Origin: Eisenibacter elegans DSM 3317
Lineage (GTDB): Bacteria; Bacteroidota; Bacteroidia; Cytophagales; Microscillaceae
Direction: 5' to 3'
DNA length: 64,000 nucleotides
Assembly (NCBI RefSeq): GCF_000430505.1
Contig: NZ_AUMD01000021.1
Span: 128,001 to 192,000, forward strand
Position numbers and translations under genes: made by a program. Positions within the stretch are counted from its first letter, which is position 1. The number at the start of each line of letters is the position of its first letter. Under the pieces are notes generated by a model. That model did no database searches. It was given only the letters and a program-made list of their open reading frames with translations, and was not told where the DNA came from. Of this stretch, positions 22,515 through 64,000 are shown one piece after another.

Positions 22515-22922
22515 ATGGAAACCTTATATGAGGATAGTTTTGTATTGATACAACAAGATTTGTCTCAAAACTTGTTGGTAGACACTTGGTCGGGAGATAG
22601 CGAGAGGCTCGACTCGGAGACGTTCAAACAAATTCTCCTAACTTGGAAAGGCTTGATGCTCGAACATCAGGTGGCGTTTGCCCTGACGGATACGCGTCAT
22701 TTCCGCTTGCCAATGACTCCTGAACTGCAAGAGTGGACAATTGAGCACATTACCAAGGAGCTAGCTGCTAGCAGATATTATCGCAAACACGCTTTTTTGA
22801 TGCCCGAAGAATTTATTGCCGGCTTGGCTATCGAGCAATTTACCCAAGACACCAATGCCGCTGCCGGAGATACACACTTTTTTAGCAGTCTAGACAAAGC
22901 CAAAACTTGGTTGCTTGCTTAA
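22515..22922 (+). CDS. hypothetical ~135-aa protein; paralog of the tandem family at 62637-64000
   Basis: The track ORF begins at TTG 22509; the first ATG is 22515. Alignable over its full length with the three C-terminal paralogs. The block ALTDTRHFRL...LQEWTIE corresponds to YMVDSEFTV...LQDWLNTE. Confidence 0.55.
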   Translation: METLYEDSFVLIQQDLSQNLLVDTWSGDSERLDSETFKQILLTWKGLMLEHQVAFALTDTRHFRLPMTPELQEWTIEHITKELAASRYYRKHAFLMPEEFIAGLAIEQFTQDTNAAAGDTHFFSSLDKAKTWLLA

Positions 22923-23026
22923 AAATGAAGACTACTACAGTATGGATGCAAATGTTACCCGTACTTGGATAATCACTGACTATGACCACGAGGCCTTTGT
23001 GCAGACCTTTGCGTATGAGTCTTAGC

Positions 23027-24352
23027 CTAGCCGCCCATCATCTCGCGTAGGTTGGCCTCAAAATCGTCGTCGTCATCATCATCGCCAAAATCATCTTCAT
23101 CAAAGCTATCAGAATCAAAATCATCTTTTCCGAAGGCGCTAGGGTCAAATTCGGGGGGGTTATTGGGAGGCGATGCCATTGCTACGGGCTCATCGGCCAA
23201 GTAATCGCTAAGGTCATCGTCATCCGCTGCATAGGCGTTCTTTTCTTCGAGTGGCATCTGTGCGAACACTGGCGGTGGAGGCGGGGGCGCTGCACTGCTG
23301 CGCTCTACGGTTTCGGTCTGTACGCCGCCTAAATCTTGCAGAGAAGCTTCTACCCGCTCCATAATGGGAGCCATGAGGTCTTGGGCTACGGGGAAGTAAG
23401 GGGTAAGGTCTTGGGCAAACTGATGCAAATGCGAAGTTTGCAGCCAAATGCTGCCCGTTCCGGCCATAGGCACTAAAATGGTTTGAGCTTGGCCATAGAG
23501 AGTCGTCAGGCGGCGCGCACGGCTCAAGTCCATACTGATAGAAGGCTCATAGGCAATCACATTGGCCAAATTGACTTCGATGACATCATCGTTGAGCAGC
23601 TTTTCGACCATTACGCCATTGCCATATACAAAGGCAGTGCCTTGGCCTTGTAGTTTTTCGAGCACAAACCCGTGTTTGTCGTAGGCGTTGAGCGCGACAT
23701 CGAGGTCATCATAATGACTCAAGACCGCCTCTGCCGAGGCGCAAAGAAAGGCTCCGCGCTGAAAAAGCAGGGTTTGCTCGTGTAGCTCTTCGAGGTCAAT
23801 ACGGACAATCCTACCCATTCGTGGAGCAACAAAGGCCACTGTCCGCAGGTACTCGCTGTTGTTTTGAAAGCGTGTGAGATAAAAATACGGCTTTTCTGTA
23901 GGTGGGGGGGGCTGTGATGGCGGCGGGATATCCTCCTCTTCCTCCAATATGTCGTCTTCCTCATCCTCCCAAGGGGGTAGGTCTGGTGGGAGTGTGTCTT
24001 CTGACTCAAACTCTATCTTTCGTCCACGCACCCAGCTTTTGAGCGCCCAGAAGGCTTTTTCAATCAATGGGGGATTATAATCGTCTTCTTCTTCCTTGGG
24101 TGCGGGGGCATCGCTCCAGTCGTCGTCATCGTCCTCCTCCTCAAAAACCGCCTCTGGCGGCGGTGGGGGCGGAGCTTGTTTGGGCATATAATCTGAGAGC
24201 CTAATGGCTTGTGTTTGGATGGCCACCTCTTCATCGAGGTACAATAAAGCTCGGGCATCGCCCTGAAGGGCGCGGCCGGGTTCGAGTTTGATTTCAAGAA
24301 TCTGCTTGAAATACTCATCAATGACTCGATATGTGAGAGAGGTTTGGCTCAT
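23027..24352 (-). CDS. AIM24/DUF124-family protein with long acidic/proline-rich insertions
   Basis: The C-terminal half carries AIM24-like motifs (GAFLCASAEAV..., GTAFVYGNGVMVEKLLNDDVIEVNLANVIAYEPSISMDL, GTGSIWLQTSHL). The N-terminal 50 aa also look AIM24-like, but are separated from the rest by about 110 aa of D/E/P-rich low complexity. A D/E-rich tail is also present. Confidence 0.6.
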   Translation of the reverse strand: MSQTSLTYRVIDEYFKQILEIKLEPGRALQGDARALLYLDEEVAIQTQAIRLSDYMPKQAPPPPPPEAVFEEEDDDDDWSDAPAPKEEEDDYNPPLIEKAFWALKSWVRGRKIEFESEDTLPPDLPPWEDEEDDILEEEEDIPPPSQPPPPTEKPYFYLTRFQNNSEYLRTVAFVAPRMGRIVRIDLEELHEQTLLFQRGAFLCASAEAVLSHYDDLDVALNAYDKHGFVLEKLQGQGTAFVYGNGVMVEKLLNDDVIEVNLANVIAYEPSISMDLSRARRLTTLYGQAQTILVPMAGTGSIWLQTSHLHQFAQDLTPYFPVAQDLMAPIMERVEASLQDLGGVQTETVERSSAAPPPPPPVFAQMPLEEKNAYAADDDDLSDYLADEPVAMASPPNNPPEFDPSAFGKDDFDSDSFDEDDFGDDDDDDDFEANLREMMGG

Positions 24353-24444
24353 CAGAATAGCAAGTACGTCATTTTTCGTCGAATTTGCACATCAATGGGA
24401 GGGCTTTCGCAAAAATGTGCCCTCATCTACTATCTATAGCTGCT

Positions 24445-24490
24445 GAAAAGACATTGCCCCAAGGCTGCTAAGCTGCAACCTTGGGGCAAT
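24445..24490 (-). terminator. rho-independent terminator after the giant gene
   Basis: Perfect 12-bp stem ATTGCCCCAAGG / CCTTGGGGCAAT with a 14-nt loop. On the minus strand it is followed by GTCTTTTC. Confidence 0.55.
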
Positions 24491-24546
24491 TTGTGGGGGG
24501 CGGATGCCAGTTTGCGGGCGTATACCCAATCAAAACTGCTTTGGAC

Positions 24547-27500
24547 TTAAAATCCGTCATCTCCGCTTTCGCCTGAGTACAGCGCACGGAACTTGCTCAT
24601 AAATGCATCTTTTCGGTCGCTTCCGGCAGGCTGTAGCGAAAACTGCCCGTCTTTGGCTTTCTTGGTTTGTCGCGCATCAATGTCTTTGTTGAAGGCCTCA
24701 TTAGAAGAGACCGCAAAGAGCACGTTGTTGTCCATCTCGAAGAAGTACCAAGAGTTGGCAGATATTTCGACATATACCGAGAAGCCGTCGCTGCTACCAG
24801 ACCCTTTTCGGATTTCGACTGCACCCGTTACGGGGGTGTTGACGATTTTGTTGCCCACACTGAAGAGCATAAAGTTTCCTTTGCTATAGAAAGTACGGAA
24901 CTCGTCGTTCCAGTGTAGCTGTACTCCGCTGATGTTGAGAGGTGAAATCAGGCTGGGCAACATTTCCATTGGCTGTACTGGGCGGCGTTTTTTCTCGGCA
25001 AAGTAGCGCTTCATCTCTCGGTCGCCGGCGATTTCGGCCAAGTTATGTGTCATAGTACCGGCTTCTTCGATATTGTAAGGGTTTTCGGGCTTTTGTAACA
25101 ATACCTCTTCTACCATCTTACTCACAGAAGTAGGAGGAACAGGGGCTTTTAGGGCGATGAAGCTATCGAATTGGTAGGTTTCCTTTTCGGGATTGTATTT
25201 GCATACGCCCACAGTCTGGAGGTGCGGGGAGTGAATAGAATCTAGGAGGCGGAATGGCCCTTCCATAATCAGTTCACCGGTAATGTCATTGAAGAGCAGT
25301 TCACTGCCTACATAGCTCAGTCGGGCGCGGTAGCTCACCGGAGCCAGCTGGAAAATACCGGTGTTGGGGTTGGCTGTCAATTCTCCGCTAGCCAAGAAGA
25401 CATCCCTATCGGAGTTAGATTCCATTGGCGAGATGAAGGTACTGTATAGCTCATTGGCAGCATTGAAATGCAAGCCGGCAGTTAAGATTTGGCCGGCGGC
25501 TGGGGTTTTCTCACGGAATGGCAGCTGGGTGTCGCCAGAGCTACGTTTGTAAGGAATCCAGCTATTAAATCCGGCTCCACTCTTCAAGTCCATTTTGATG
25601 TACCCATCGAGCGCCAAGTTTTTGTCATTGGCAAACATATACACCTTGCCATAATAGAGAATCCCGGTAGTGATATAGATGGGGGCTTCTTCGCTGACAT
25701 AACCCTGCGAAACGGTGATGCGTCTTTTGCCGTCTAGGGCTGCAAAGGAGGTATAGTTTCCAGAGATTTCATCATCAGGAACAGCATCAGGGTCATCAGG
25801 ATCTACTGGATCATCCGAGCCGTCGGGGTTTTTCTTGTTGTCTTTTTCCCGCTCTTTGGTCGACTTCTTGTCTTCTTTTTCTTGTTCAAATGCGGCTTTT
25901 CCGTCTAAGAAAGCCTGTTTTTTTCTCCCTTTCTTGTCATCGGTTTCGGTATCGTTGAGGGTGAGTACGTTTTCAAACTGTTTTTTCTCGGCCTGTACCT
26001 GGGCTGCGTCTAAGAGTCGGAAGTCATCGAACTTGATGTTGTAGATAGTACTGTCTACCTTGTTGTTGAAGGCATAGGTAGCATTGCCTTCGAAATCAAT
26101 TCGGGAGTTGATTTTGATACGCCCATCAAAGAGGTTGTGGTATTGGTTAAGGGTATCAATGACGAGCTTGGCATTGCGTAGGGTTTCGATATCGGCCTCT
26201 CCTCTTACGACCACCCTGCCCGAATCGGGGAGGATACGCGCATCGGCAGAGGTGATATAGGGAACCCCTTCGATGATAAGTCGTCGTTCTTGGGTGTTGT
26301 AGTGTGCTTCGGAGCCATTGAATCGGACATCACGCCCGTCATACGATTCGCCGCCATACTTGGTAGAGGCAAAGATAGAGGTGCTATCGCCCTGCATATC
26401 AATCATATTGGTGGCTGTATTCCAGCGGGCTTCTTGGATATTGGTTTGGAACTTGGCATAAGGGAAGCTAAAGGCCAGATAGTTGATATTGCGAACCTCT
26501 TCCGAAGGCTGTGAGTAAGCAAATCCTTGGCGTAGACTCATATTGAGGTCTACAAAGTTGCCTTTGAGTAGTTCGGGATTATTGACATAAAACGATTGGT
26601 CGGTACTACGGGGGTCTCGTTTGGCAGAATTGACCTTAAATTCGAGTTGTGTTCCTACTAGGCTATCTATTCCCAACATATAAGGATCCATTCCCATCGC
26701 AATCATCTCAAAATCACTTCTTACGGCACTACCATAGCCATACAAGCCGGTAGATTTGACAATCAGCGTGCCATAGAGTGTCATCATCTCAAAGTTGTCG
26801 GCACCATCATTGCCATAGACTTCAAACAAGCGGCTAGAGTATTCGATTTCGTAGCGGTCTTCGCCCAAGAAACCATCGATATATTCTCGATTGTCAATCA
26901 TCAGACTGTCATCGAGCACAGCCCAAGCCATTTTGGCTCGTTCGCCTATGGCCATCGGGAAAGAGGCCTTTTTGGAGCCTATTTTTTCGGCTCGGTCTAC
27001 CTTAAACTCTACCTCATCAGCGTATACATATTTGGGCAAAAAGAGGTATCGTTTGCCGATGGTATTCTCGACCTTGGTACTGAGGAAAGTAATCAGGCCG
27101 GAAGAGAACATCCCTTCTTTGTTCATCACAATAGGTTCGTTGAAGCGAATATGTGCGCCCTCGACGCGGCTTTCTTCCGGGTATTTGCTCAGAATGTCTT
27201 GATGTAGTTCTTCGACCCTTCCCGGCGAGTTTTGAATCATATCTTGAGGAATGCCTAGGTCGTGGGTGGCAATCCATTCTTTTACGTAACCACGCTCGGG
27301 GTAGAGGTCATAGCCCTCGGGGGGTGGGTGGTGTGTAAAGCCCATTTGGCCGCCAGTGCCGGGCAAGCCAACCAACGTTTCTTTGAAGGGCGGAAAAATA
27401 TTACAGCTCATAATTCCGGGGAAGCGTGGTTCCTTGATGTAGAGGCTGTCTAGTTTTACTTCGGGCATAATGAATTTCACCCGGGTAGAGTCATAAGCGC

Positions 27501-30027
27501 CATCTTGGCGTGTTTCTAGCGCAAAGTTCATAAAGCCACCTCCGGGGATGTTGAGCTTGGGATAGGTGGCAAAAAACTCTCCGGGCATTTGGTCGCTTTC
27601 CCCTTGTTTCAGCCCCGATTTGTTGGTGGGCAGGTTGATTTGCATCGTTCCGGCTTCGTCATAAACTATTTCGGAACCGAAGTACTGCGGCTCAGGCTGT
27701 CTGGTAACGGGGTTGTATACGATGTTGCCGTTTTCGTCTGTAGCCGGGATGATGTTGCCGGTGCTGTCGCGCATAATGAAGAGGATGTCTTCAATTTCGG
27801 GCATATCCAATACAAACTCCTCGTAGTTGAAGGTAAACATCCTTCCTCTGAAGCGCATATCGCCGATTTTGGCTTCGCCTGCCTCCATAAAAATGGTTCG
27901 GTTTGAGAATATCTGTACTTCGTTGTTGGCCGGCACGAGATAAACCCCCAGCTCGTGGCTGATGGGGAATTCTTTGACCCCCCGCACCAACAAGTTGCTC
28001 CCGCCCAGAATCATACTGGCATTGGGAATCCAATTGATGGTTACGGACTCGTTGCCGAGGCTGTCATAAACAGCCTGATTGCCCACACGTACCCGCGACT
28101 GGATGCGTAGGTCGTCATAGTCATAGTTATAATAAATATCGCGTTCGCCCGGGGTCTGGAAGCCCAGCTGTGGTTGGTAAGTAGGGCGACCATTGATGTC
28201 TCCTACTACATTTTGGGCATTGACATCTTTGGCGGTATAATAAAACTTATCCGCATCTACATAATGCACCAGTTTGTAACCGAGGGTGATTTTGTGCCTT
28301 TTGGTCCATTCGTCCGTTTCGGTTTTGGGATTCCAACGCTGGTATTCGTCTTCTTCTATCTCTAGTGCGCCTTTCAGGCGCAAGTCTGTTGCCACACCCA
28401 AAAGGACATTGGGGTCCTGTTTGTAGTCTTCGGCCATCTCCTCCAGATAGAAGGGGTCGTACATACTATAGGAAATCCCCTCTCTGATGAGTTTGCGGGC
28501 ATAATTATGAAAAATCTTGTAAGGGTTGAAATCATAAATACTAGAGGCATAGGTGTATACATCTGGGTCATAGAAATCAAAAGACTCAAAAGTTACGGGC
28601 AGCAAGCTATCGGTGAGGGTAGTCAAGAAAAAATTGAGGCTATCATTGGTCATATCATAGCTGAGCAGGTCTACATCCATCAAAAACTTATGGTCGGTAT
28701 TGATAAAGGGAGTTTCTTGAAAGACACTGTTCTTGTTGCGTATCAGCTCTATGCGCGACTTATCGATATGGTATACCAAGTCTACCGATGTATGGAACAC
28801 CGAGTCTGCCCCACCATAAAAGTAGATGGAGAACTTTGTGTTTTTGGCAGTTACGCGTGTTTGCTCGAAGATAAACTCGCGCCCTCGCACATTGAAGAGT
28901 GGCTCGCCGCCACGCTCTGCGTAAAGTGTCGAGAGGCCGCGCTCACGTGCACCCACACCTTTGATACCCTGTAGGGCAAAGCCCCCTTGGTAGCTTACAT
29001 ATTCTCCTAGGCCAGTGATGCGGACATCTTCGTCTGACTGAAACTTGGGATAATCAGCCACCGTAAGGGTATCTATAATCACCCGTTTGGTTTTACCGTC
29101 TACTTTGATATTTCGGTATACATACTCTTTTTTGCGGTCTTTGGAGATAAAGTCAAAGCTGCCTGTAATCCCCCCGCTAAAATAGCTTCCATTGCTGAGT
29201 TGTGCGTCTTTGCTGTGGATAGCGGCTTTTCCGGCTTCCAGCACAAAATCTCCCAAGGAGCAGGTAATCTGCCCTGTCGAAAGGTTGGGGTACTCGCGTT
29301 TGAAGCCAACTTGTGTTTTGCCCTCTTCGTTTTTATGCTTGGTACTGACATAGAGGTTGGCCCAGTCGAAGCTTCCTCCATTGCCGATAAAGTTATGACT
29401 GAGCATTTTGTAATCGCCAGAAGTACTGGAGACAAAGCTAGAGTCGAAAGGCGACACCAAGGCTAGGTCTACCCGGCTTACCTGCAGTATGGGCTCATCT
29501 TCGTAGCGAATATTGTAAGAGCCTTGCGCAAGGTAGACCTTGTTGTAGGAGCTGTAATAGAGCGCTTGGTGGGCGTAGAAGTGGTAGAGTTGTACAAAAA
29601 ACTCCTCTGTTGTCTTGGTATTGATATTGGTCTGCAACATCGACAAACAAGCATCGAGCAGATTACCCAACTGAGAGCTGTTGAGAATAGACTGCTCGGT
29701 GCCTTCGATTAGGGCTGCATAAAAATGTTTGTATGCACTGTTGAAATCACACTGTTTTTGCAACAACTCATTAGAAATCTGGATGACTTTTTGTTGTGCG
29801 GGCTGTCCCATACCGCTCCATACCTGCCCAAACCGCTCCGACAGGGCGGCACCATCTGTGGCATTGTATTTGACCATCAGTTGACCTACAAGGGCAATGA
29901 ATTTTTCGGTGCTATCAGGAGCGGTTTTCGTATAGCGTTGCGCTTGCAGCGGCGCTACAGTCAGCAGGAGGCTGCCGCAGATGCCCCACAAAAGCATCCA
30001 TAAACGAGTTTTTGAAAACATAGCCAT
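24547..30027 (-). CDS. very large (1826 aa) secreted, probably outer-membrane, protein of unknown function
   Basis: Single uninterrupted ORF with a signal peptide (LLLTVAPLQAQ). The body is beta-rich with many aromatic-alternating segments. There is a K/E/D-rich linker (about aa 1370-1440), and the protein ends in ...DDGF (C-terminal Phe, as in many OM beta-barrels). Identity with SprA, LptD or TamB could not be established from the sequence alone. Confidence 0.7.
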   Translation of the reverse strand: MAMFSKTRLWMLLWGICGSLLLTVAPLQAQRYTKTAPDSTEKFIALVGQLMVKYNATDGAALSERFGQVWSGMGQPAQQKVIQISNELLQKQCDFNSAYKHFYAALIEGTEQSILNSSQLGNLLDACLSMLQTNINTKTTEEFFVQLYHFYAHQALYYSSYNKVYLAQGSYNIRYEDEPILQVSRVDLALVSPFDSSFVSSTSGDYKMLSHNFIGNGGSFDWANLYVSTKHKNEEGKTQVGFKREYPNLSTGQITCSLGDFVLEAGKAAIHSKDAQLSNGSYFSGGITGSFDFISKDRKKEYVYRNIKVDGKTKRVIIDTLTVADYPKFQSDEDVRITGLGEYVSYQGGFALQGIKGVGARERGLSTLYAERGGEPLFNVRGREFIFEQTRVTAKNTKFSIYFYGGADSVFHTSVDLVYHIDKSRIELIRNKNSVFQETPFINTDHKFLMDVDLLSYDMTNDSLNFFLTTLTDSLLPVTFESFDFYDPDVYTYASSIYDFNPYKIFHNYARKLIREGISYSMYDPFYLEEMAEDYKQDPNVLLGVATDLRLKGALEIEEDEYQRWNPKTETDEWTKRHKITLGYKLVHYVDADKFYYTAKDVNAQNVVGDINGRPTYQPQLGFQTPGERDIYYNYDYDDLRIQSRVRVGNQAVYDSLGNESVTINWIPNASMILGGSNLLVRGVKEFPISHELGVYLVPANNEVQIFSNRTIFMEAGEAKIGDMRFRGRMFTFNYEEFVLDMPEIEDILFIMRDSTGNIIPATDENGNIVYNPVTRQPEPQYFGSEIVYDEAGTMQINLPTNKSGLKQGESDQMPGEFFATYPKLNIPGGGFMNFALETRQDGAYDSTRVKFIMPEVKLDSLYIKEPRFPGIMSCNIFPPFKETLVGLPGTGGQMGFTHHPPPEGYDLYPERGYVKEWIATHDLGIPQDMIQNSPGRVEELHQDILSKYPEESRVEGAHIRFNEPIVMNKEGMFSSGLITFLSTKVENTIGKRYLFLPKYVYADEVEFKVDRAEKIGSKKASFPMAIGERAKMAWAVLDDSLMIDNREYIDGFLGEDRYEIEYSSRLFEVYGNDGADNFEMMTLYGTLIVKSTGLYGYGSAVRSDFEMIAMGMDPYMLGIDSLVGTQLEFKVNSAKRDPRSTDQSFYVNNPELLKGNFVDLNMSLRQGFAYSQPSEEVRNINYLAFSFPYAKFQTNIQEARWNTATNMIDMQGDSTSIFASTKYGGESYDGRDVRFNGSEAHYNTQERRLIIEGVPYITSADARILPDSGRVVVRGEADIETLRNAKLVIDTLNQYHNLFDGRIKINSRIDFEGNATYAFNNKVDSTIYNIKFDDFRLLDAAQVQAEKKQFENVLTLNDTETDDKKGRKKQAFLDGKAAFEQEKEDKKSTKEREKDNKKNPDGSDDPVDPDDPDAVPDDEISGNYTSFAALDGKRRITVSQGYVSEEAPIYITTGILYYGKVYMFANDKNLALDGYIKMDLKSGAGFNSWIPYKRSSGDTQLPFREKTPAAGQILTAGLHFNAANELYSTFISPMESNSDRDVFLASGELTANPNTGIFQLAPVSYRARLSYVGSELLFNDITGELIMEGPFRLLDSIHSPHLQTVGVCKYNPEKETYQFDSFIALKAPVPPTSVSKMVEEVLLQKPENPYNIEEAGTMTHNLAEIAGDREMKRYFAEKKRRPVQPMEMLPSLISPLNISGVQLHWNDEFRTFYSKGNFMLFSVGNKIVNTPVTGAVEIRKGSGSSDGFSVYVEISANSWYFFEMDNNVLFAVSSNEAFNKDIDARQTKKAKDGQFSLQPAGSDRKDAFMSKFRALYSGESGDDGF

Positions 30028-30100
30028 AAGTATTTTTTTAAGCAGTTGAGTAGTGTAAGTTCAGGACAGTTTGTATTCAAACGCCTAAGCAGCCTGTAAG

Positions 30101-30937: not shown

Positions 30938-31144
30938 GGCATTGATTGTTTAGGGGTGAATGTGTTTGGGAGTATAGCGTAGAAGGGATGGAGGATGGGG
31001 CTACAAATGTCTAGGTTTTTTGCTAACTTTCGATGTAATTGACCCAAAAGCGCTTCTTTTTAGGCTCCCGGGCTTCTAACAAACGGAGGCTTTAGGCAGT
31101 TTTAAGGTCTGTACTTCTTTCTCTTTACCCTAGCCCCTCTGTCT

Positions 31145-32341: not shown

Positions 32342-32564
32342 TGCAGCCTCTCAGTACATCCAAGACGTGCTGATTTCCGTGGCTATCAATGACTTTTAGG
32401 AAAATCAATTTCTTGGAATAATCGCTATCAAACATAACCCACAGTTACAGGCTGTGGGTTTTTAGATGTAGGCAGAAAAGCAGTCTAAGGCTTACTTCTC
32501 CAAAATATCTAAGGTGTATTTACTTGCATTCTGATAGCTTTATATTCCGATACTGATATTACAA

Positions 32565-32977: not shown

Positions 32978-32996
32978 TGTCGAGCACCACAGAACT

Positions 32997-55339: not shown

Positions 55340-55577
55340 TTACAATCTCCTAACAAACGTTATAGATAAAGCAGCGAGCACCAAGGATTAAGCTCTTGGT
55401 TTGTGCCAGCTAAGAAGTACGATTTTGGTACAAGCCTGAATCCTTTCTAAAGGCAGCCTATGGGGCAACCCTTGGGCTGCAAAAATGTCCTAGGGTATGA
55501 GTTTTGGCTAAACCAAGGGTAGCTTTTTACGAAAAACAAAGCATTTTGTGTAAATTGCCTGCCTAACACACCCCGCA

Positions 55578-57197: not shown

Positions 57198-57245
57198 CCT
57201 GTGGGGTGGTATTCAAAAAACTACCCCATTATCTGTGAATAGTCC

Positions 57246-57656
57246 CTAAAGGCTCAGCCCTGTGAGGTTTTCTTTACTTAAAGGCTTGTTGATAAATTCT
57301 TTGACATACGAATACTTCTTGGAGCGTTTGATGTCTTTCGAATTGATAGAAGATGTCAGCATCACAATTTTGCTAAAGTTTTGAATGCGCGAGGGGAGCT
57401 TTTCGAACTCATCCAAAAACTGAAACCCGTCCATCAGCGGCATATCAATATCCAAGAAAATAATTTCTGGCAAACCATTCTCAGCCCCCACTACTTCCAC
57501 GAGTTTGTCAGCGTTTTTGAGAAACTCTATGGCGCTCTTCCCGCCGGTGTGCACAAAAATATGATTACAGATACTGGCAGACTCGATGATGCGTTGGTTG
57601 ATGAGGTTGTCAATTTCGTTGTCGTCGATGAGCATTACGATGTTGTACTTTGCCAT
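57246..57656 (-). CDS. orphan response regulator (receiver domain only)
   Basis: IVMLIDDNEIDN...IIFLDIDMPLMDGFQFL...IVMLTSS carries the phospho-acceptor Asp and the Thr/Lys positions. Confidence 0.75.
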   Translation of the reverse strand: MAKYNIVMLIDDNEIDNLINQRIIESASICNHIFVHTGGKSAIEFLKNADKLVEVVGAENGLPEIIFLDIDMPLMDGFQFLDEFEKLPSRIQNFSKIVMLTSSINSKDIKRSKKYSYVKEFINKPLSKENLTGLSL

Positions 57657-57872
57657 AAGAGGTAGTGCTATTTAGGAGTTCGAGATAATGAGGGTTTTTA
57701 GAGCCTCTGGGGAGGTATCAATTGCAAGATACATATTTCTTTACAATGACCTTAAAAGTCTGTAAGAAAATTACGTATTGATAAGTCTGTTTTTGTGTTA
57801 AGTTGTGAAACAGGCGCTTCCCTAGCTTTTGGGCTGGGGAGGCGCTTGAGTGATGGAGGTTTGTGATACGGT

Positions 57873-59453
57873 TTAGATATCAAATTTGATGCCTTGAGCC
57901 AAGGGCAAGCTTGCTCCATAATTGATGGTATTGGTTTGGCGGCGCATATATGCCTTCCAGGCATCGGAGCCAGACTCGCGGCCTCCACCGGTTTCTTTTT
58001 CGCCACCAAAAGCGCCACCTATTTCGGCTCCCGACGTACCGATATTGACATTGGCAATTCCACAATCAGAGCCATTGGCCGACAAGAAGCGTTCGGTTTC
58101 GAGTAAGTGATTGGAGAAAACAGCTGAGGAGAGCCCTTGGCGTACACTGTTTTGGATGGCAATAGCCTCCTCTATTGCACCTTGATACGAAATCAGGTAC
58201 AAAATGGGTGCAAAAGTTTCGGTTTGAACCATTTCATATTCATTTTTGGCTTCGACCAAGGCAGGGCTTACATAGTATCCTTGCTCGTAAGGGCTGTGGT
58301 TGAGCGCTTCTCCGCCACACAATAGCCGTCCTCCTTCGGCTTGTACCTTGTTGAGGGCTTGTTGGAATTGCTCTACGGCAGCGGCATCAATCAGTGGGCC
58401 TACCAATACACCTTCGGCCAAGGGGCTGCCGATACTGAGTGTTGGGTATATTTGTAGGAGGCGGTTTTTGACTTGTTCGTAGACCTGCTCGTGAACAATA
58501 AGGCGGCGGGTAGTGGTACAGCGTTGCCCGCAGGTACCTACAGCGCCAAAAATAGTTGCGCGAATGGCCATTTCGAGATTGGCTTCGGGCGTGATGATGA
58601 TGGCATTGTTGCCACCCAGCTCTAAGATAGTTTTGCCTAGGCGTGCGCCTACTGTTTGGGCTACTTGCTTGCCCATTCGGGTAGAGCCGGTAGCCGAAAT
58701 AAGGGGGACACGTTCGTCTTCGGTCATCCAAGTGCCGGCAGCCGCTTCTCCCTGCAAAAGGCAGAAAATGCCTTCAGGCAGCTGGTTTTCGGCCAAAACT
58801 TCGGCAATAATCCGCTGGCAGGCAATGGCACACAGTGGGGTTTTTTCGGAGGGTTTCCATATACATACATCTCCACAGACGGCGGCTATCATCGCGTTCC
58901 AAGACCATACGGCCACTGGGAAGTTGAAAGCCGAAATAATACCCACAATCCCTAGGGGGTGGTATTGCTCAAACATCCGGTGCTCGGGGCGCTCGGAGTG
59001 GGTAGTCATCCCATAGAGTTGGCGCGAGAGTCCGACGGCAAAATCACAGATATCAATCATCTCCTGTACTTCTCCTAAACCCTCTTGATAGAGCTTGCCC
59101 ATCTCGATAGAGACCAAGCGCCCCAATGGTTCTTTGTATTGTCGTAGGCGCTCACCAATCTGCCGTACAATTTCCCCGCGCTTAGGGGCAGGAACATTGC
59201 GCCATACCTTGAAAGCCGCTTCTGCCTTTTCTATCAAGGCATCATACTCTGCACGGGTGGCATATTGTACTTCGGCCAGTGCTTGACCATTGATAGGCGA
59301 GTAGCTGGTGAAGGCGCTGTGTTCGTCGCTCAGCACCCCCCATTCTTGGCCAGAGCTAGAGGCCGGATTGCGGGGCTTAATGCCTAAGGTTGTGAGGGTT
59401 TCCTGTAATTGTAGTATTTGCATCATAGGAGTTATGAATGGCTGTGCGAACAA
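57873..59453 (-). CDS. aldehyde dehydrogenase family protein (ALDH7/antiquitin-like, semialdehyde dehydrogenase type)
   Basis: Catalytic ELGGNNAII (Glu) and GQRCTTTRR (Cys) are present. The FNFPVAVWSWN and IWKPSEKTPL blocks resemble ALDH7. Confidence 0.8.
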   Translation of the reverse strand: MFAQPFITPMMQILQLQETLTTLGIKPRNPASSSGQEWGVLSDEHSAFTSYSPINGQALAEVQYATRAEYDALIEKAEAAFKVWRNVPAPKRGEIVRQIGERLRQYKEPLGRLVSIEMGKLYQEGLGEVQEMIDICDFAVGLSRQLYGMTTHSERPEHRMFEQYHPLGIVGIISAFNFPVAVWSWNAMIAAVCGDVCIWKPSEKTPLCAIACQRIIAEVLAENQLPEGIFCLLQGEAAAGTWMTEDERVPLISATGSTRMGKQVAQTVGARLGKTILELGGNNAIIITPEANLEMAIRATIFGAVGTCGQRCTTTRRLIVHEQVYEQVKNRLLQIYPTLSIGSPLAEGVLVGPLIDAAAVEQFQQALNKVQAEGGRLLCGGEALNHSPYEQGYYVSPALVEAKNEYEMVQTETFAPILYLISYQGAIEEAIAIQNSVRQGLSSAVFSNHLLETERFLSANGSDCGIANVNIGTSGAEIGGAFGGEKETGGGRESGSDAWKAYMRRQTNTINYGASLPLAQGIKFDI

Positions 59454-59652
59454 AAATCGCAGGTGTAGTATTGATTTGATGGGTAAATGTACTAAAAAAT
59501 CACATAGCTTGGGGGCTTCCTCACAAATGAATCACCTTGGGGGAATCCCTCAGAATAGAGTACGAACGCGTCAAAGTTTGTATATTTGCACTCGTTTGGT
59601 TGGCGCTCTGTGGCGCTGCTTAATATTCTCATCATCATCTCACATTTCAACT

Positions 59653-60753
59653 ATGGGGCTTCAATGCGGAATTGTAGGTCTGCCCAACGTGGGTAAGTCG
59701 ACCTTGTTCAATGCTTTATCTTCTTCGGCCAAGGCCGAATCGGCCAACTATCCTTTCTGTACCATCGAGCCTAATGTAGGCAAAGTAACCGTGCCCGACG
59801 AGCGTATCGACCAACTGGCTGAGTTGGTACAGCCTGAGCGCATTCTGCCTACCGTCATTGAGTTTGTAGACATTGCCGGGTTGGTCAAAGGGGCAAGCCA
59901 GGGCGAGGGCTTGGGCAACAAGTTCTTGGGTAATATCCGCGAGGTAGATGCCATCATCCACGTGGTACGCTGCTTTCAGGACCCCAACATCGTTCACGTC
60001 GCCGGCAAGGTAGACCCTGTGGCCGACAAAGAAATCATCGATACAGAGCTACAGCTCAAAGACCTCGAAAGCATCGACAAGCGCATTGCGAAGGTAGAAC
60101 GTACGGCCAAGGCGGGTGATGCTGCCGCCAAAAAAGAATATGAGTTGCTCTCAAGGTTTAAAAGTACTTTAGAATCGGGCCAAAACGCCCGACTAGTAAG
60201 CTACAGCGCCGATGAAGCTGCCTATATCGATAGCCTACAGCTATTGACGATTAAACCTGTCATTTATGTGGCCAATGTAGAAGAAAGCGCTATCCACAAC
60301 GGCAACGAATACGTAGAGGCGCTCCGCCAAGCTGTAGCCGATGAGGGGGCAGAGGTAATCATTGTTTCGGCAGCTATAGAAGCTGAAATAGCCGAGCTGA
60401 CTGAGCCCGAAGAGAAGGCGGTGTTCTTGGCTGAATATGGCCTGAAAGAGTCGGGGCTAAGCCGCCTCATCAAAACCTCATACCGCTTGTTGAATTTGAT
60501 TACATACTTCACCGCCGGCAAGAAGGAAGTACGTGCTTGGACTATCCGCCAAGGCTGGAAGGCTCCCCAAGCCGCAGGGGTGATTCACTCAGATTTTGAG
60601 CGGGGATTCATCCGCGCCGAAGTTATCAAAATACCTGACTATATGCAGTACAGAAGCGAAGCTGCCTGCCGCGATGCTGGAAAAATTGCTGTAGAAGGAA
60701 AAGAATATATTGTAGAAGATGGGGATGTGATGCACTTCCGCTTCAATGTATAG
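59653..60753 (+). CDS. ychF: redox-regulated ribosome-associated ATPase YchF
   Basis: Start at the internal ATG 59653 (MGLQCGIVGLPNVGKSTLFNALS). The track ORF's upstream extension overlaps the ALDH gene on the other strand. TGS domain at the C-terminus. Confidence 0.9.
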   Translation: MGLQCGIVGLPNVGKSTLFNALSSSAKAESANYPFCTIEPNVGKVTVPDERIDQLAELVQPERILPTVIEFVDIAGLVKGASQGEGLGNKFLGNIREVDAIIHVVRCFQDPNIVHVAGKVDPVADKEIIDTELQLKDLESIDKRIAKVERTAKAGDAAAKKEYELLSRFKSTLESGQNARLVSYSADEAAYIDSLQLLTIKPVIYVANVEESAIHNGNEYVEALRQAVADEGAEVIIVSAAIEAEIAELTEPEEKAVFLAEYGLKESGLSRLIKTSYRLLNLITYFTAGKKEVRAWTIRQGWKAPQAAGVIHSDFERGFIRAEVIKIPDYMQYRSEAACRDAGKIAVEGKEYIVEDGDVMHFRFNV

Positions 60754-61032
60754 CAGATAGCCTGTTCCTGTATAGAGGCGTAAGCGGCTTAGGGATAGGC
60801 GAGCAGTACCCCACAGCACGAAGTGCGAGGAGTACAGCCGCCTAGCCCGACCCGAAGGGGAAGCCCCAGTTATTTGTAGTGGTTCAAAAGCTCGTAGAAA
60901 ATGGTGTTTTTCAAAGATTTGATGTTTTGTTTTTGCCAAATATCCTACTTAGTCGATAGAATATTAATAGTATTCTTGCAAAAGCCTTTAGAATTACAGA
61001 AATTGCAGCGTCTTTAAAAGTCTACCAAGATT

Positions 61033-62283
61033 ATGGATATACTCAGATTTTTTACAGCCGGCAGCGTAGATGACGGCAAAAGCACCCTTATCGGTCGATT
61101 GCTCTATGACAGCCGTGCTATTCCGCTAGACTTGCTCGAAGCCATTGAGCGAGCCAGCAAAAACAAGAACGACGGCGAGATAGACCTTGCCCTCTTGACG
61201 GATGGCTTGCGTGATGAGCGCGCTCAAGGCATTACTATTGATGTGGCCTACAAGTATTTCCAAACCGAGCGGCGCAAGTTCATTATTGCCGATACTCCCG
61301 GGCACGTACAGTATACCCGCAATATGGTTACGGGAGCCTCTAATTGCCAGCTGGCTGTCATCTTAGTGGATGCTCGCGAAGGAGTAACCGAGCAAACCAA
61401 GCGCCATACCTATCTCTGTCATCTGTTGGGGATTAAGCATATGGTCATTGCCATCAACAAAATGGACTTGGTAGACTATGCCGAGAGCCGTTTTGAGGAA
61501 ATTATAGCCGACTACGAGGCTTTTGCTGCGCCGTTGGCCATCGCCAATCTGGCCTTTATACCCGTGTCGGCGCTCAAAGGCGACAACATCGTCCATCCGT
61601 CTGCTCGGATGCCTTGGTACAAGGGCTTGGCCTTATTGCCCTTCCTCGAAGAGGTGTCTATTGTAGAAGTGCTCTCTACTCAGCCCCGTTTTCAGGTGCA
61701 ATATGTTATCCGTCCTCAAACCGATGCGCTACACGATTATCGTGGCTATGCCGGGCGCATCAATAGCGGTACTTACAAAGCAGGGCAGGAGGTAGTGATA
61801 TTGCCCTCGGGCTTACGCACAACATTGGCCGCCATAGAATTTGACGGCCAACAACTGCCCGAAGCAAGCGCGCCTATGTCTGTGGTATTACACTTGGCCG
61901 AAGATGTCGATGTAAGCCGTGGCGATATGATTGTGCCTGCTACAGAGGCTCCCACACTCAGCCGTGAGTTGAGGGCCTCTCTCTGCTGGATGGAAAACCA
62001 GCCGCTCAATCTTTCCAAAAAATACTTACTCCAACACAACAGCCGCCTCATTCGATGTGCTGTGAAGGAAGTAAGCCAAAAAACGGATATACACACCCTA
62101 GAGGCTGTTTTGGGAGACAATACACTGTTACTCAATGATATTGGGCAGGTTGTTATCCGCTTGGCTGCGCCTATAGCTGCCGATACCTATAGCCAAAATC
62201 GCGAAAATGGTGCTTTTATCCTGATTGATGAGCAACACAATAATACTGTTGCCGCCGGAATGATTACGGCTGTCGAAATATAG
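61033..62283 (+). CDS. cysN: sulfate adenylyltransferase subunit 1 (CysN-type GTPase)
   Basis: G1 GSVDDGKST, G3 DTPGH, G4 NKMD. 416 aa with no APS-kinase extension. No cysD is adjacent. Confidence 0.75.
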   Translation: MDILRFFTAGSVDDGKSTLIGRLLYDSRAIPLDLLEAIERASKNKNDGEIDLALLTDGLRDERAQGITIDVAYKYFQTERRKFIIADTPGHVQYTRNMVTGASNCQLAVILVDAREGVTEQTKRHTYLCHLLGIKHMVIAINKMDLVDYAESRFEEIIADYEAFAAPLAIANLAFIPVSALKGDNIVHPSARMPWYKGLALLPFLEEVSIVEVLSTQPRFQVQYVIRPQTDALHDYRGYAGRINSGTYKAGQEVVILPSGLRTTLAAIEFDGQQLPEASAPMSVVLHLAEDVDVSRGDMIVPATEAPTLSRELRASLCWMENQPLNLSKKYLLQHNSRLIRCAVKEVSQKTDIHTLEAVLGDNTLLLNDIGQVVIRLAAPIAADTYSQNRENGAFILIDEQHNNTVAAGMITAVEI

Positions 62284-62315
62284 GCTGTTGCACACGCTAC
62301 TGAATATTTTTCAAA

Positions 62316-62415
62316 TCCCGCAGTTTTAACTGTGGGCGAGGCCTCATTTTGCCCCCAAAATGAGGCCTTAGTTTGTCTCTGAGGTGCTTTTCCAAAAATG
62401 TCCATTGGTGCGGCT
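62316..62415. repeat. copy B of the ~100-bp intergenic repeat (see 16742-16860)
   Basis: Same ordered blocks as copy A. Contains a 9-bp G-U-tolerant hairpin CCCGCAGTT/AACTGTGGG and the terminator hairpin below. Confidence 0.5.
62339..62368 (+). terminator. rho-independent terminator after cysN
   Basis: Perfect 13-bp stem AGGCCTCATTTTG / CAAAATGAGGCCT with loop CCCC, followed by TAGTTTGTCTCT. Confidence 0.55.
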
Positions 62416-62636
62416 GTTGCATTACCTCGGTGTAAATCTTTAGCTCTTCTGTTATTTTGGCGCTCAAGTCCTCAAAAACCTTCTTAGTGATAGGTTTGCA
62501 AACCTATTGCCAAGGGTTTATGCCAAATGTACGGAAGAAGCAGATGTTTTGGTAGAAGAGTGTTGGATTTGTATTGTATTTTTTAGTTATTGTAGGATTA
62601 TTTACACATCGAGCCCTTCTCTAAATACGAACACTG

Positions 62637-63056
62637 ATGATTACTTATTCAGACAATGATTTGATGCGCATCGAATATGATGCAACCCTCAAGGCTGTGG
62701 TGTATGCTTGGAAAAAAGGCAACCACGGGATGACCGAAGAACAATACAAAACAGAAATGCGCCGCGCTCTGGCCGCAGTACAGGAGTACAAAGCGCTGAC
62801 GGTCATCGCCTATATGGTCGATTCTGAGTTTACGGTCAAGCCCCAACTACAGGACTGGCTCAATACCGAAGTAATGTACCAACTATTCCCCTATGGCTGT
62901 CGCTATGTGATAGTGGTCTTGAGCCAAGATTTTATTGCCCGTCTTTCGATAGAACAAGTATTTGAAGAAAAAACCGAAAACCGTGTTGGCAATATGTTTG
63001 TAGGAAGTATGGAAGCCGCCCGTGTAGAAGCTGCAAAGTTTCTGCAAGCAGCTTAA
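62637..63056 (+). CDS. hypothetical ~140-aa protein, tandem paralog 1 (putative STAS/SpoIIAA-like fold)
   Basis: MITYSDNDLMRIEYDATLKAVVYAWKKGNHGMTEEQYK...LTVIAYMVDSEFTV...LQDWLN...RYVIVVLSQDFIARLSIEQVF. The two downstream neighbours are 50-65% similar. Confidence 0.6.
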   Translation: MITYSDNDLMRIEYDATLKAVVYAWKKGNHGMTEEQYKTEMRRALAAVQEYKALTVIAYMVDSEFTVKPQLQDWLNTEVMYQLFPYGCRYVIVVLSQDFIARLSIEQVFEEKTENRVGNMFVGSMEAARVEAAKFLQAA

Positions 63057-63086
63057 AACACTACAAATCAACTCACTAGTGTGCTT

Positions 63087-63512
63087 ATGACGATTATAGA
63101 AGAAAGCCAGTATCTACAGATTGTGCATGACTCAAGTATCAAAGCCCTGATATACAGCCTAAAAAAAGGAAACTATGATATGTTTGATGAGGATTACAAA
63201 GCCGGTATTTTGCGTGTATTGGCAGCCTCTCAAGTCCATCGCCCGCTAACTGTCATCGCCAACTCTTATGAGTCGGAGTTTACTGTCAGCATAGAGTTGC
63301 AAGACTGGCTCAACAACGAAGTGGCTGTCAAAATTCCCCCTACAGGAGCGAAACATATGGTCATTGTGCCGAGCAAGGACTTTATTGTTCGCCTTTCGGT
63401 AGAGCAAGCCGTTGACGATTCGGCCAAACCTATTACCATCACGTTTGCTACTTCGCTAGAAGATGCCCGCCGGCAAGCTGCCGATAATCTACAAAAGCAC
63501 TTATTGCCCTAG
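63087..63512 (+). CDS. hypothetical ~140-aa protein, tandem paralog 2
   Basis: The track ORF starts at GTG 63081; the first ATG is 63087 (MTIIEESQYLQIVHD...). Same block structure (LTVIANSYESEFTV...LQDWLNNE...HMVIVPSKDFIVRLSVEQ). Confidence 0.6.
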   Translation: MTIIEESQYLQIVHDSSIKALIYSLKKGNYDMFDEDYKAGILRVLAASQVHRPLTVIANSYESEFTVSIELQDWLNNEVAVKIPPTGAKHMVIVPSKDFIVRLSVEQAVDDSAKPITITFATSLEDARRQAADNLQKHLLP

Positions 63513-63586
63513 AAACAACCGTGTTTTCTGGTGCCCTATATCATATAATCACGATTCTCTCACTACTATCCCCACTATTTCTGCTT

Positions 63587-64000
63587 ATGATTACCTATGC
63601 CGACACCGACTATATGCGTATTGAATTTGACAAAAGCCTCAACGCGATGATATACCGATGGAAATCAGGCAATCACGGGATGAGCGATGAGGAATACAAA
63701 ACCGAAATGCGCCGTTGTATAGAGTGCATCAAGACTTACCGACCTCTGACGGTGATTGCCTATATGGTCGATTCTAACTTCAGCATACACCCAGCGCTAC
63801 AAGACTGGCTCAATAAGGAAATCATTGCTTCGTTATTTCCCAATGGCTGTAGATATGCAATCTTGGTAGAGAGTGCCGATTTTATTGCCCGGCTCTCATT
63901 AGAGCAAGTCTTTGCCGACAAAACCGAGGAGCGCGTCGGCAGTGTATTTGTCAGTACTTTGGAGGAGGCGTATGGGTATGCGCAAAAATTTTTGGGCGAA
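63587..64000 (+). CDS. hypothetical protein, tandem paralog 3 (3' end beyond window)
   Basis: ATG at 63587; the open frame runs to the window edge (138 codons). MITYADTDYMRIEFDKSLNAMIYRWKSGNHGMSDEEYKTEMRR...YMVDSNFSI...LQDWLNKE... is about 70% identical to paralog 1. Confidence 0.6.
   Translation, partial: MITYADTDYMRIEFDKSLNAMIYRWKSGNHGMSDEEYKTEMRRCIECIKTYRPLTVIAYMVDSNFSIHPALQDWLNKEIIASLFPNGCRYAILVESADFIARLSLEQVFADKTEERVGSVFVSTLEEAYGYAQKFLGE

What the first reader, a model, noticed from the sequence alone, without database searches (positions are those of the whole stretch)
22515..64000. Four-member family of ~140-aa proteins (one copy at 22.5 kb, tandem triplication at 62.6-64.0 kb) with a predicted STAS/SpoIIAA-like fold and a conserved Asp-Ser/Thr
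The three consecutive genes (62637, 63087, 63587) and the gene at 22515 align end to end. The secondary-structure-like pattern (beta-beta-alpha-beta-alpha-beta-alpha) and a conserved D-[ST] at the end of the third strand (YMVDSEF / YMVDSNF / NSYESEF / LTDTRHF) mirror the phospho-acceptor position of anti-sigma-factor antagonists. The window also encodes a membrane sensor PP2C (SpoIIE/RsbU-type) phosphatase, an orphan receiver domain and a PAS protein, but no RsbW-type kinase. An uncharacterised, expanded partner-switching-like module is plausible. Tandem triplication itself suggests recent diversification.
Basis: partly seen in the sequence, partly recalled or inferred. Interest (0 to 1): 0.6.

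Follow-up and report, generated by a model that had tools for sequence, protein, structure and literature searches.

The report
Divergent SpoIIAA-like (DUF3478) paralog family
Four small genes in this Eisenibacter elegans window are real paralogs of an uncharacterised, Cytophagales-expanded branch of the known SpoIIAA-like (DUF3478) fold family, but they lack the phosphorylation site and the kinase/phosphatase neighbours of a partner-switching module, so the finding is fairly ordinary.

Summary
Four ~135-141-aa ORFs (22515, 62637, 63087, 63587) are homologous end to end. A profile built without them finds exactly these four in the window (E 5e-42 to 2e-32).

The STAS/SpoIIAA-like fold is supported:
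- The AF2 model has pLDDT 93.7.
- 39 of 147 relatives hit Pfam PF11964 "SpoIIAA-like" (ex-DUF3478), although the window proteins themselves do not.

The functional interpretation is not supported:
- The "conserved D-[ST]" is not one column. The D-T of copy 4 lies three residues before the D-S of copies 1 and 3.
- Those columns are N/D/E/K and mostly Phe in the wider family.
- They sit about five residues before the SpoIIAA Ser58-equivalent position. That position reads K, S, H, T in the four copies and is followed by a near-invariant Pro.
- The window has no STAS or RsbW-type hit. The PP2C lies 8.6 kb away on the other strand.
- Across about 100 related loci the neighbours are heterogeneous. 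Five loci lie near SiaB, SiaC or PP2C genes.
- The triplication is lineage-specific but old, because dS is saturated.

Best reading: non-phosphorylated binding modules that use the α2/α3 face. Their function is unknown.

The parts
22515..22922 (+). Paralog 4 (135 aa, WP_026999740.1, 'hypothetical protein'). It is monocistronic, lying between an M16 peptidase (-) and an AIM24 gene (-). It keeps the family consensus (D59-T60, T-P-E-L-Q-E-W, A-I-E-Q, A..W-L) and belongs to a different subfamily from the triplet.
   Evidence: E 5.5e-42 against the non-window HMM; nearest relatives P0004 and P0012.
62637..63056 (+). Paralog 1 of the tandem triplet (139 aa, P0001). It was the query for the AF2 models.
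   Evidence: E 9.6e-37.
63087..63512 (+). Paralog 2 of the tandem triplet (141 aa, WP_026999772.1). The ATG at 63087 fits the family N-terminus better than the GTG at 63081. It is the most divergent of the three (42% to copy 1) and has lost W25.
   Evidence: (E 2.3e-32).
63587..64000 (+). Paralog 3 of the tandem triplet. The window end cuts off two codons and the stop. The full gene is 140 aa (WP_026999773.1). Downstream, outside the window, come a 139-aa OmpA-domain gene and a divergent MerR gene.
   Evidence: (E 3.5e-37).
62338..62369 (+). A 14-bp-stem hairpin (GAGGCCTCATTTTG-CCCC-CAAAATGAGGCCTT) just after the cysN-like gene. It probably separates that gene from the triplet's transcription unit. 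No comparable hairpin lies between the three copies, whose gaps are 30 and 74 nt.
   Evidence: consensus scan plus direct reading; function inferred.

Best explanation
The four genes are paralogs of a distinct, divergent subfamily of the SpoIIAA-like / DUF3478 (Pfam PF11964) family, which has the STAS/Sec14-type a/b fold. The subfamily is strongly expanded in Cytophagales (Microscillaceae, Bernardetiaceae, Thermonema) and in some Bacteroidales MAGs. Many paralogs per genome occur as scattered singletons and short tandem arrays.

Shown: homology, fold, distribution, signature residues, and the absence of a conserved gene partner.

Inferred mechanism: these are stand-alone cytoplasmic binding modules that are not regulated by Ser/Thr phosphorylation. 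Their functional site is the cleft or face formed by helices a2 and a3, the 'switch/lid' helices of the solved DUF3478 proteins 2ook and 2q3l. The subfamily-specific, nearly invariant polar residues sit there: Q72 and W74 in P-E-L-Q-x-W, and S104, E106 and Q107 in L-S-x-E-Q. A conserved F122...A128..W131-L132 cluster pins helix a4 to the sheet, as in 2ook/2q3l. The bound species, whether an amphiphilic small molecule as proposed for DUF3478 or a protein partner, is unknown.

The Eisenibacter triplet is an old lineage-specific tandem expansion. It has lost two family-conserved residues (D59 and W131) but is still under purifying selection.
For: - Family reality: a profile of the four copies finds 1859 cluster representatives at E<=1e-3 and 952 at E<=1e-10, nearly all 130-145 aa.
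- Link to PF11964: 39 of 147 members hit it at E<=1e-3 (best 1.1e-8), and it is the only recurrent Pfam family. PF11964-annotated P0152 matches the family profile at 3e-19 in a 5.8e9-sequence database and aligns full length.
- Shared conserved residues: the spacing W74 / A92 / F122 / A128 / W131 / L132 mirrors Trp71 / Ala88 / Phe114 / Ala120 / Trp123 / Leu124 described for 2ook and 2q3l (PMC2954212).
- Signature on a2/a3: Q72 in 147/147, W74 in 145, E106 in 134, Q107 in 141. Q72 lies on the buried face of a2, and a3 has no net amphipathicity. The lowest pLDDT is at residues 101-120, which fits a mobile a3.
- Distribution: 70 true loci in 37 assemblies, almost all Cytophagales or Bacteroidales. 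One Microscilla assembly has at least 18 copies and strain AO1-C at least 10. Ten of the 70 loci carry arrays of 2-5 copies.
- No conserved partner: 127 immediate neighbours fall into 166 Pfam families, the top one (AraC) with only 5. 96 of 132 neighbours are singletons in all-vs-all BLAST.
- Triplet history: monophyletic among 236 sequences, with dS saturated and dN/dS about 0.2 for copies 1 and 3.
Against: - The window proteins themselves give no Pfam or NCBIfam hit, even at E<=10. Family assignment is therefore transitive.
- Profile-profile comparison with SpoIIAA is not significant (hhalign probability 0.1).
- No coordinates were available, so placing the conserved residues in a cleft rests on helical-wheel reasoning and on analogy with 2q3l.
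- The ligand-carrier function of DUF3478 is itself only a structural-genomics proposal.
- A few loci do sit next to partner-switch genes.
Confidence: 0.6

Rival explanations
1. The proteins are anti-sigma-antagonist-like phosphoproteins of an expanded partner-switching module. An unidentified kinase phosphorylates a loop or helix-start Ser/Thr, and the window's GAF-SpoIIE PP2C dephosphorylates it.
For: - The column equivalent to SpoIIAA Ser58 (column 68) is Thr or Ser in 84 of 147 family members, and in copies 2 and 4.
- A PP2C, a lone receiver and a PAS protein are in the window.
- Five of about 100 related loci lie within 8 kb of SpoIIE, SiaB-like or SiaC genes, always on the same strand.
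Against: - D62-S63 is not a conserved column and lies about five residues before the acceptor-equivalent position.
- Column 68 is K, S, H, T in the four copies. A near-invariant Pro follows it, not the D-S-S-G context.
- No member hits Pfam STAS or STAS_2.
- The window has no RsbW-type kinase or sigma factor. The PP2C is 8.6 kb away on the opposite strand, separated by DUF4349, GHL10, receiver, aldehyde dehydrogenase, YchF and CysN-like genes.
- SpoIIE is absent from the recurrent neighbour families, and HATPase_c appears in 2 of 127 neighbours.
- None of 31 metagenome loci has SiaC or SiaB, and only one has a distant SpoIIE.
Confidence: 0.12
2. Some members are not switch phosphoproteins themselves. 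They are instead the downstream binding target, or output, of SiaC-type (DUF1987) partner-switch modules in Bacteroidota. They would take the place that the diguanylate cyclase SiaD has in Pseudomonas.
For: - Locus L022 has TPR-SpoIIE, PAS-SpoIIE, DUF6272 (SiaB-like), SiaC and then the family gene. All are on one strand, and there is a 1-nt gap between SiaC and the family gene.
- L044, L028 and L014 also carry SiaC or SiaB-like genes on the same strand within 0.5-3.5 kb.
- Chen et al. 2021 suggest that DUF1987 proteins modulate the adjacent protein (PMC8457831).
Against: - Only four loci of about 100, and only one tight junction.
- Not replicated in 31 metagenome loci.
- No SiaC or SiaB gene is in the window or in the 9 kb downstream of it.
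- No background frequency could be computed, so enrichment is unproven.
Confidence: 0.08
3. The tandem arrays and many scattered paralogs reflect an immunity or defence role. Examples would be immunity proteins of polymorphic toxins or components of anti-phage systems.
For: Many paralogs per genome, arrays of 2-5 copies and highly variable neighbourhoods.
Against: - No recurrent PADLOC hit in 147 members; only single weak matches.
- No toxin, Rhs or nuclease domains among the recurrent neighbour families.
- The family has nearly invariant polar residues and is under purifying selection, which is unlike fast-evolving immunity proteins.
- The neighbours are mostly housekeeping or metabolic genes.
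Confidence: 0.04

Closest known systems
Pfam PF11964 'SpoIIAA-like' (formerly DUF3478; SCOP Sfri0576-like). Solved members are Shewanella YP_749275.1 (2ook) and YP_001095227.1 (2q3l), Kumar et al. 2010, PMC2954212.
   Same: - Stand-alone cytoplasmic domain of about 125-140 aa with the b/a superhelix fold.
- A conserved Trp early in a2.
- The conserved Ala(b)-Phe(b)-Ala..Trp-Leu(a4) anchoring cluster with identical spacing.
- The SpoIIAA phospho-Ser position is not conserved.
- No adjacent kinase.
- 39 of 147 relatives reach the Pfam model.
   Different: - The window proteins do not reach the Pfam model.
- The subfamily has its own nearly invariant signature, P-E-L-Q-x-W and L-S-x-E-Q. PF11964-annotated relatives such as P0152 lack it.
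- The model has one extra N-terminal strand.
- The G-K-L-T-H and Tyr34/Asp73 motifs of the Shewanella proteins were not seen.
- The expansion is Bacteroidota-specific, whereas the described members are mostly proteobacterial and single-copy.
Anti-sigma-factor antagonists and stressosome STAS proteins (SpoIIAA, RsbV, RsbS, RsbR; Pfam PF01740/PF13466).
   Different: - No sequence-level match: Pfam gives none, and hhalign probability is 0.1.
- No D-S-S-G. The acceptor-equivalent column is variable and is followed by Pro.
- No cognate HATPase_c kinase and no operonic PP2C.
- Only about 80 of 139 residues superpose.
SiaC / DUF1987 (PF09345), the phosphoprotein of the SiaABC partner switch.
   Same: Both are small and have a STAS-related fold according to PMC8457831. 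The two occasionally occur in the same gene cluster (L022, L044, L028, L014).
   Different: No detectable homology: no Pfam hit, and hhalign probability is 0.3. Where both occur together they are separate genes.
Sec14 / CRAL-TRIO / BCH lipid-binding domains.
   Same: They share the SCOP 'SpoIIAA-like' fold class. There are weak Foldseek hits to BCH (8k70, E 9e-3) and to neurofibromin SecPH. DUF3478 was proposed to carry non-polar ligands by analogy with these domains.
   Different: TM-scores are only about 0.3. There is no sequence similarity, and the proteins are much smaller and lack the extra helical lid domain.

Membership tests
Pfam PF11964 SpoIIAA-like (DUF3478) | The protein scores against the Pfam model. 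| tested here: not met
   The four window proteins give no PF11964 hit even at E<=10. Transitively, 39 of 147 profile-retrieved relatives hit it at E<=1e-3, and PF11964-annotated P0152 hits the family profile at 3e-19. The window proteins are therefore filed as a divergent sister subfamily, not as members by the Pfam criterion.
Pfam PF11964 SpoIIAA-like (DUF3478) | SpoIIAA-like b/a fold (b1-b2-a1-b3-a2-b4-a3-b5-a4). | tested here: met
Pfam PF11964 SpoIIAA-like (DUF3478) | The conserved clusters described for 2ook/2q3l: Trp in a2, and Ala(b4), Phe(b5), Ala..Trp-Leu (a4). | tested here: met
   Family columns are W74 145/147, A92 126, F122 136, A128 133, W131 140 and L132 103, with the same spacing as Trp71, Ala88, Phe114, Ala120, Trp123 and Leu124. 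Copy 4 keeps all of them. The triplet has replaced W131 by E, Q and Y.
Pfam PF11964 SpoIIAA-like (DUF3478) | Open/closed (metamorphic) a2-a3 cavity that binds non-polar ligands. | not testable with these tools
   No model coordinates were available. There are only indirect hints: the lowest pLDDT is at 101-120 and a3 lacks amphipathicity.
Anti-sigma-factor antagonist / partner-switching STAS (SpoIIAA, RsbV) | Sequence membership in STAS (PF01740) or STAS_2 (PF13466). | tested here: not met
   None of the 147 members hits these models at E<=1. hhalign against a SpoIIAA alignment gives probability 0.1.
Anti-sigma-factor antagonist / partner-switching STAS (SpoIIAA, RsbV) | Conserved phosphorylatable Ser/Thr at the start of helix a2 (D-S-S-G). 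| tested here: not met
Helix a2 starts at residue 69. In DUF3478 the equivalent residue is five before the conserved Trp, which is column 69 here; the non-significant hhalign register puts Ser58 at column 68. Column 68 is T48/S36/V13/H8 of 147, and K, S, H, T in copies 1-4. Column 69 is Pro in 113 of 147.
Anti-sigma-factor antagonist / partner-switching STAS (SpoIIAA, RsbV) | Cognate HATPase_c (RsbW/SpoIIAB-type) kinase and PP2C phosphatase in the same gene cluster. | tested here: not met
   The window has no HATPase_c hit. The PP2C is 8.6 kb away on the opposite strand. Downstream of the triplet are OmpA-like and MerR genes. Among 127 immediate neighbours elsewhere, HATPase_c appears twice and SpoIIE is not among the recurrent families. 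In-house HMMs find SpoIIE, SiaB or SiaC within 8 kb in 5-6 of 70 genome loci. Of 31 metagenome loci none has SiaB or SiaC, and one has a distant SpoIIE.
Anti-sigma-factor antagonist / partner-switching STAS (SpoIIAA, RsbV) | STAS three-dimensional fold. | tested here: met
SiaC / DUF1987 (PF09345) | Sequence match to the SiaC model. | tested here: not met
   No PF09345 hit among 147 members. hhalign against five SiaC sequences gives probability 0.3.

The most novel reading that the evidence does not exclude
This Bacteroidota-specific SpoIIAA-like subfamily is a new kind of STAS-fold signalling adaptor. It would carry no phospho-switch of its own. Its invariant Q72/E106/Q107 cleft would bind either a metabolite or the unphosphorylated SiaC-type protein, so that at least some paralogs would act as outputs of SiaABC-like partner switches, as the L022 operon suggests. 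The large paralog sets would diversify that output.
Probability: 0.1. Interest if true: 0.55.

Novelty: new member of a known kind. Interest (0 to 1): 0.25.

Why it matters
The result gives four 'hypothetical proteins' of Eisenibacter elegans a fold and a superfamily: WP_026999740.1, WP_026999772.1, WP_026999773.1 and the copy-1 protein. The same applies to roughly 1,900 clusters of relatives.

It defines a subfamily signature, P-E-L-Q-x-W plus L-S-x-E-Q, that current Pfam and NCBIfam models miss. It also removes a tempting but unsupported annotation as anti-sigma antagonists of a partner-switching module.

The function of DUF3478-type proteins is still unknown. A lineage with dozens of paralogs per genome could be a useful system for finding their ligands or partners, but nothing here is surprising to a specialist.

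Tried and rejected
- Direct Pfam and NCBIfam scans of the four proteins gave only noise.
- The word-indexed protein search found only the query itself or very few relatives.
- Profile and single-sequence searches of PDB sequences found no meaningful hit.
I replaced it with a hand-made degenerate DNA pattern of the L-x-[DN]-x5-[FY]-x-[IV]-x-P-[DE]-L-Q-[DE]-W motif.
- hhalign against SpoIIAA and against SiaC was not significant in either case. The SpoIIAA register is used only as a consistency check.
- The afdb50 fold library was unavailable.
- 2ook and 2q3l never appeared in the top structure hits, so I could make no direct superposition on DUF3478 structures.
- The defence or immunity reading was rejected.
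- The 335-aa ORF in L056 was checked for a fusion. Its N-terminal 206 aa has no Pfam hit and is probably an ORF-calling extension.
- SiaC/PP2C adjacency was followed up, but it was not replicated in metagenome loci.
- 'Recent triplication' was rejected on saturated dS.


Full report
**1. The observation**

The window is from Eisenibacter elegans (Cytophagales, Microscillaceae). Copy 1 is 100% identical to an NCBI 'hypothetical protein' of that species.

ORF listing and translation confirm four genes:
- 22515-22922, 135 aa
- 62637-63056, 139 aa
- 63087-63512, 141 aa
- 63587 to the window end, 138 codons with no stop

The source contig shows that the last gene is 140 aa. It is followed by a 139-aa OmpA-domain gene and a divergent MerR gene, not by further copies.

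The four align end to end. Identity to copy 1 is 42, 61 and 20%. Copy 1 against the distant 22.5-kb copy gives BLASTP E 9e-7. A profile built only from relatives outside the window hits exactly these four window ORFs (E 5.5e-42 to 2.3e-32) and nothing else at E<=10. The four-member family is real.

NCBI names copies 2, 3 and 4 'hypothetical protein', and copy 1 likewise.

**2. The 'conserved D-[ST]'**

All copies share an invariant P/I-x-L-Q-x-W anchor. Counted from it, the D-T of copy 4 (LTDTRHF) aligns with Y59-M60 of copy 1. It lies three residues before D62-S63.

In 147 family members:
- column 62 is N41/D30/E24/K18
- column 63 is F76/S20/L17/M14
- the conserved acidic residue is column 59 (D96/N39), which the triplet has replaced by Y, N and Y

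**3. What the family is**

None of the four proteins hits Pfam or NCBIfam. A profile of the four searched against 1.84 billion cluster representatives finds 1859 proteins at E<=1e-3 and 952 at E<=1e-10. Nearly all are 130-145 aa, and a few are tandem double domains.

Scanning 147 of these against Pfam gives one recurrent family, PF11964 'SpoIIAA-like'. It has 60 hits at E<=1 and 39 at E<=1e-3, with a best E of 1.1e-8. A minor second family is DUF7793. A PF11964-annotated protein (P0152) matches the family profile at 3e-19 and aligns full length, but it lacks the subfamily's Q72 and L-S-x-E-Q.

PF11964 is the former DUF3478, defined from the Shewanella structures 2ook and 2q3l (PMC2954197; PMC2954212). 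The conserved residues reported there are Trp71 in a2, and Ala88, Phe114, Ala120, Trp123 and Leu124 anchoring a4. They recur here with the same spacing as W74, A92, F122, A128, W131 and L132.

I therefore file the window proteins as a divergent sister subfamily of PF11964. It has its own nearly invariant signature: Q72 147/147, W74 145, S104 124, E106 134, Q107 141.

**4. Fold**

With only four sequences, AF2 gave pLDDT 78. Foldseek then ranked RsbS, a Planctomyces STAS protein and SpoIIAA on top, with TM 0.5-0.7 and E about 1e-2.

With the 147-sequence alignment the model reaches pLDDT 93.7. Its elements are E2-6, E10-15, E20-25, H34-51, E55-59, H69-86, E90-94, H97-112 and H125-138. The lowest confidence is at residues 101-120.

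Overall, a STAS/SpoIIAA-like fold is supported, although the similarity covers only about 60% of the chain.

**5. The phospho-acceptor question**

My recalled B. subtilis SpoIIAA sequence is identical to PDB 1auz. Ser58 lies in D-S-S-G at the start of a2, eight residues after the preceding strand.

In the model the strand ends at residue 59 and a2 starts at 69. Kumar et al. place the equivalent residue of DUF3478 proteins (Asp66/Ser66) five residues before the conserved Trp71. That corresponds to column 69 here. The best local hhalign register against SpoIIAA puts Ser58 on column 68, although it is not significant (probability 0.1).

Column 68 is T48/S36/V13/H8 in the family, and K, S, H, T in copies 1-4. 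Column 69 is Pro in 113 of 147. So D62-S63 does lie in the b-a loop, but about five residues upstream of the acceptor-equivalent position. The true equivalent is not conserved among the four paralogs and lacks the D-S-S-G context. A T/S-P start is also simply a good helix N-terminus, which is my inference.

**6. Genomic context**

A membrane GAF-SpoIIE PP2C lies at 51522-54038(-), a lone receiver at 57246-57656(-) and a PAS protein at 16315-16716(+).

Pfam scans of the other sizeable ORFs show housekeeping, T9SS and envelope genes. None has a HATPase_c, STAS or sigma-factor hit. The PP2C is 8.6 kb from the triplet on the other strand. Between them lie DUF4349, GHL10, receiver, aldehyde dehydrogenase, YchF and CysN-like genes. 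A 14-bp-stem hairpin at 62338-62369 follows the CysN-like gene. The triplet has short intergenic gaps of 30 and 74 nt and probably forms its own unit.

**7. Related loci**

A degenerate DNA pattern for the motif retrieved 73 genome loci. Of these, 70 carry true family genes: 93 domains in 37 assemblies, almost all Cytophagales plus some Bacteroidales MAGs. One Microscilla assembly has at least 18 copies and strain AO1-C at least 10. Ten loci have arrays of 2-5 copies.

The 127 immediate neighbours fall into 166 Pfam families. The commonest is AraC, with 5. SpoIIE is not among the recurrent families. In all-vs-all BLAST 96 of 132 neighbours are singletons, and the rest reflect synteny between related genomes. 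PADLOC shows nothing recurrent.

**8. A minority association**

Two neighbours were SiaC (DUF1987) proteins, so I followed them up.
- L022 has TPR-SpoIIE, PAS-SpoIIE, DUF6272 (which I take to be SiaB-like, from my own knowledge), SiaC and then the family gene. All are on one strand, with a 1-nt gap before the family gene.
- In-house HMMs find similar genes on the same strand in L044, L028, L014 and L012, where a PP2C lies 90 nt after a five-copy array. L040 has a distant one.
- Chen et al. propose that DUF1987 proteins modulate adjacent proteins (PMC8457831).
- A second sample of 31 metagenome loci contained no SiaC or SiaB-like gene and one distant SpoIIE. I had no genomic background frequency.

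This remains a lead, not evidence.

**9. History of the copies**

In a neighbour-joining tree of 236 family sequences the triplet is monophyletic. Copy 4 groups with orthologue-like sequences from other sources (P0004 at 54% identity, and P0012).

Synonymous sites are saturated for all pairs. For copies 1 and 3, dS is 1.5 and dN 0.30. The triplication is therefore lineage-specific but old, and the copies are under purifying selection. The triplet has lost D59 and W131, and copy 2 has also lost W25, so it is a derived subclade.

**10. Mechanism**

Shown:
- homology to the DUF3478 lineage
- a STAS-like fold
- cytoplasmic stand-alone architecture; direct reading of the N-termini shows no signal peptide or transmembrane segment
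- a signature concentrated on a2 and a3
- no conserved gene partner

Inferred: the functional site is the a2/a3 face. In 2q3l and 2ook this is the mobile 'switch' that opens a hydrophobic cavity. In canonical STAS proteins it is the partner-binding face, which is my own knowledge. Helical-wheel analysis puts the invariant Q72 on the buried side of a2. It also shows that a3 is hydrophobic on more than one side, with E106 and Q107 beside F99, I100 and L103. This fits a buried polar anchor in a cleft.

I commit to 'non-phosphorylated ligand- or partner-binding module'. Confidence is about 0.6 for the package, made up of about 0.9 for identity and fold and about 0.35 for the binding-cleft mechanism.

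**11. Verdict**

The family is real. The result is a new, un-modelled subfamily of a known domain of unknown function. Interest is modest.

Noticed in passing
L022:205-6219 (Bacteroidales MAG DYQJ01000138): An apparent operon of TPR-SpoIIE, PASx3-SpoIIE, DUF6272 (SiaB-like), SiaC (PF09345) and a member of this family, with only 1 nt between SiaC and the family gene. Similar same-strand SiaB, SiaC or PP2C genes lie near family genes in L044, L028, L014 and L012.
   Followed up: partly
window 6579-11274: A 1134-aa Peptidase_C25 (gingipain-like) protein is immediately followed by a PorV (type IX secretion) gene. This may be a T9SS cargo/shuttle pair.
   Followed up: no
window 24547-30027 (-): An 1826-aa ORF with a signal-peptide-like N-terminus and no Pfam hit at E<=1e-5. 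It is a large uncharacterised secreted or surface protein.
   Followed up: no
window 23027-24352 (-): An AIM24-domain protein carrying long proline-rich and Asp/Glu-rich low-complexity segments: an insert after about residue 55 and an acidic C-terminal tail. That is unusual for bacterial AIM24 proteins.
   Followed up: no
window 62338-62369: A perfect 14-bp-stem hairpin (GAGGCCTCATTTTG CCCC CAAAATGAGGCCTT) lies 55 nt after the stop of the CysN-like GTPase gene. It is a likely terminator separating that gene from the triplet.
   Followed up: partly
window 61033-62283 (+): A CysN/EF-Tu-like GTPase (GTP_EFTU plus GTP-eEF1A_C domains) has no CysD-like gene next to it. Its upstream neighbour is YchF.
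   Followed up: no
L012:5643-7809 (Cytophagales MAG JANPJR010000101): A five-copy tandem array of the family with an A-B-A-(fragment)-B pattern. This indicates segmental duplication of a two-gene unit. One copy is an 80-aa fragment.
   Followed up: partly
L016:714-1532; also proteins P0008 (273 aa) and P0042 (306 aa): Single polypeptides containing two tandem copies of the domain, so arrays sometimes fuse into double-domain proteins.
   Followed up: partly
window 59308-60753 (+) versus 57873-59453 (-): The listed YchF ORF starts at a GTG that overlaps the aldehyde dehydrogenase gene on the other strand. The Pfam match begins at residue 120, so the true start is probably an internal Met about 115 codons downstream.
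   Followed up: no
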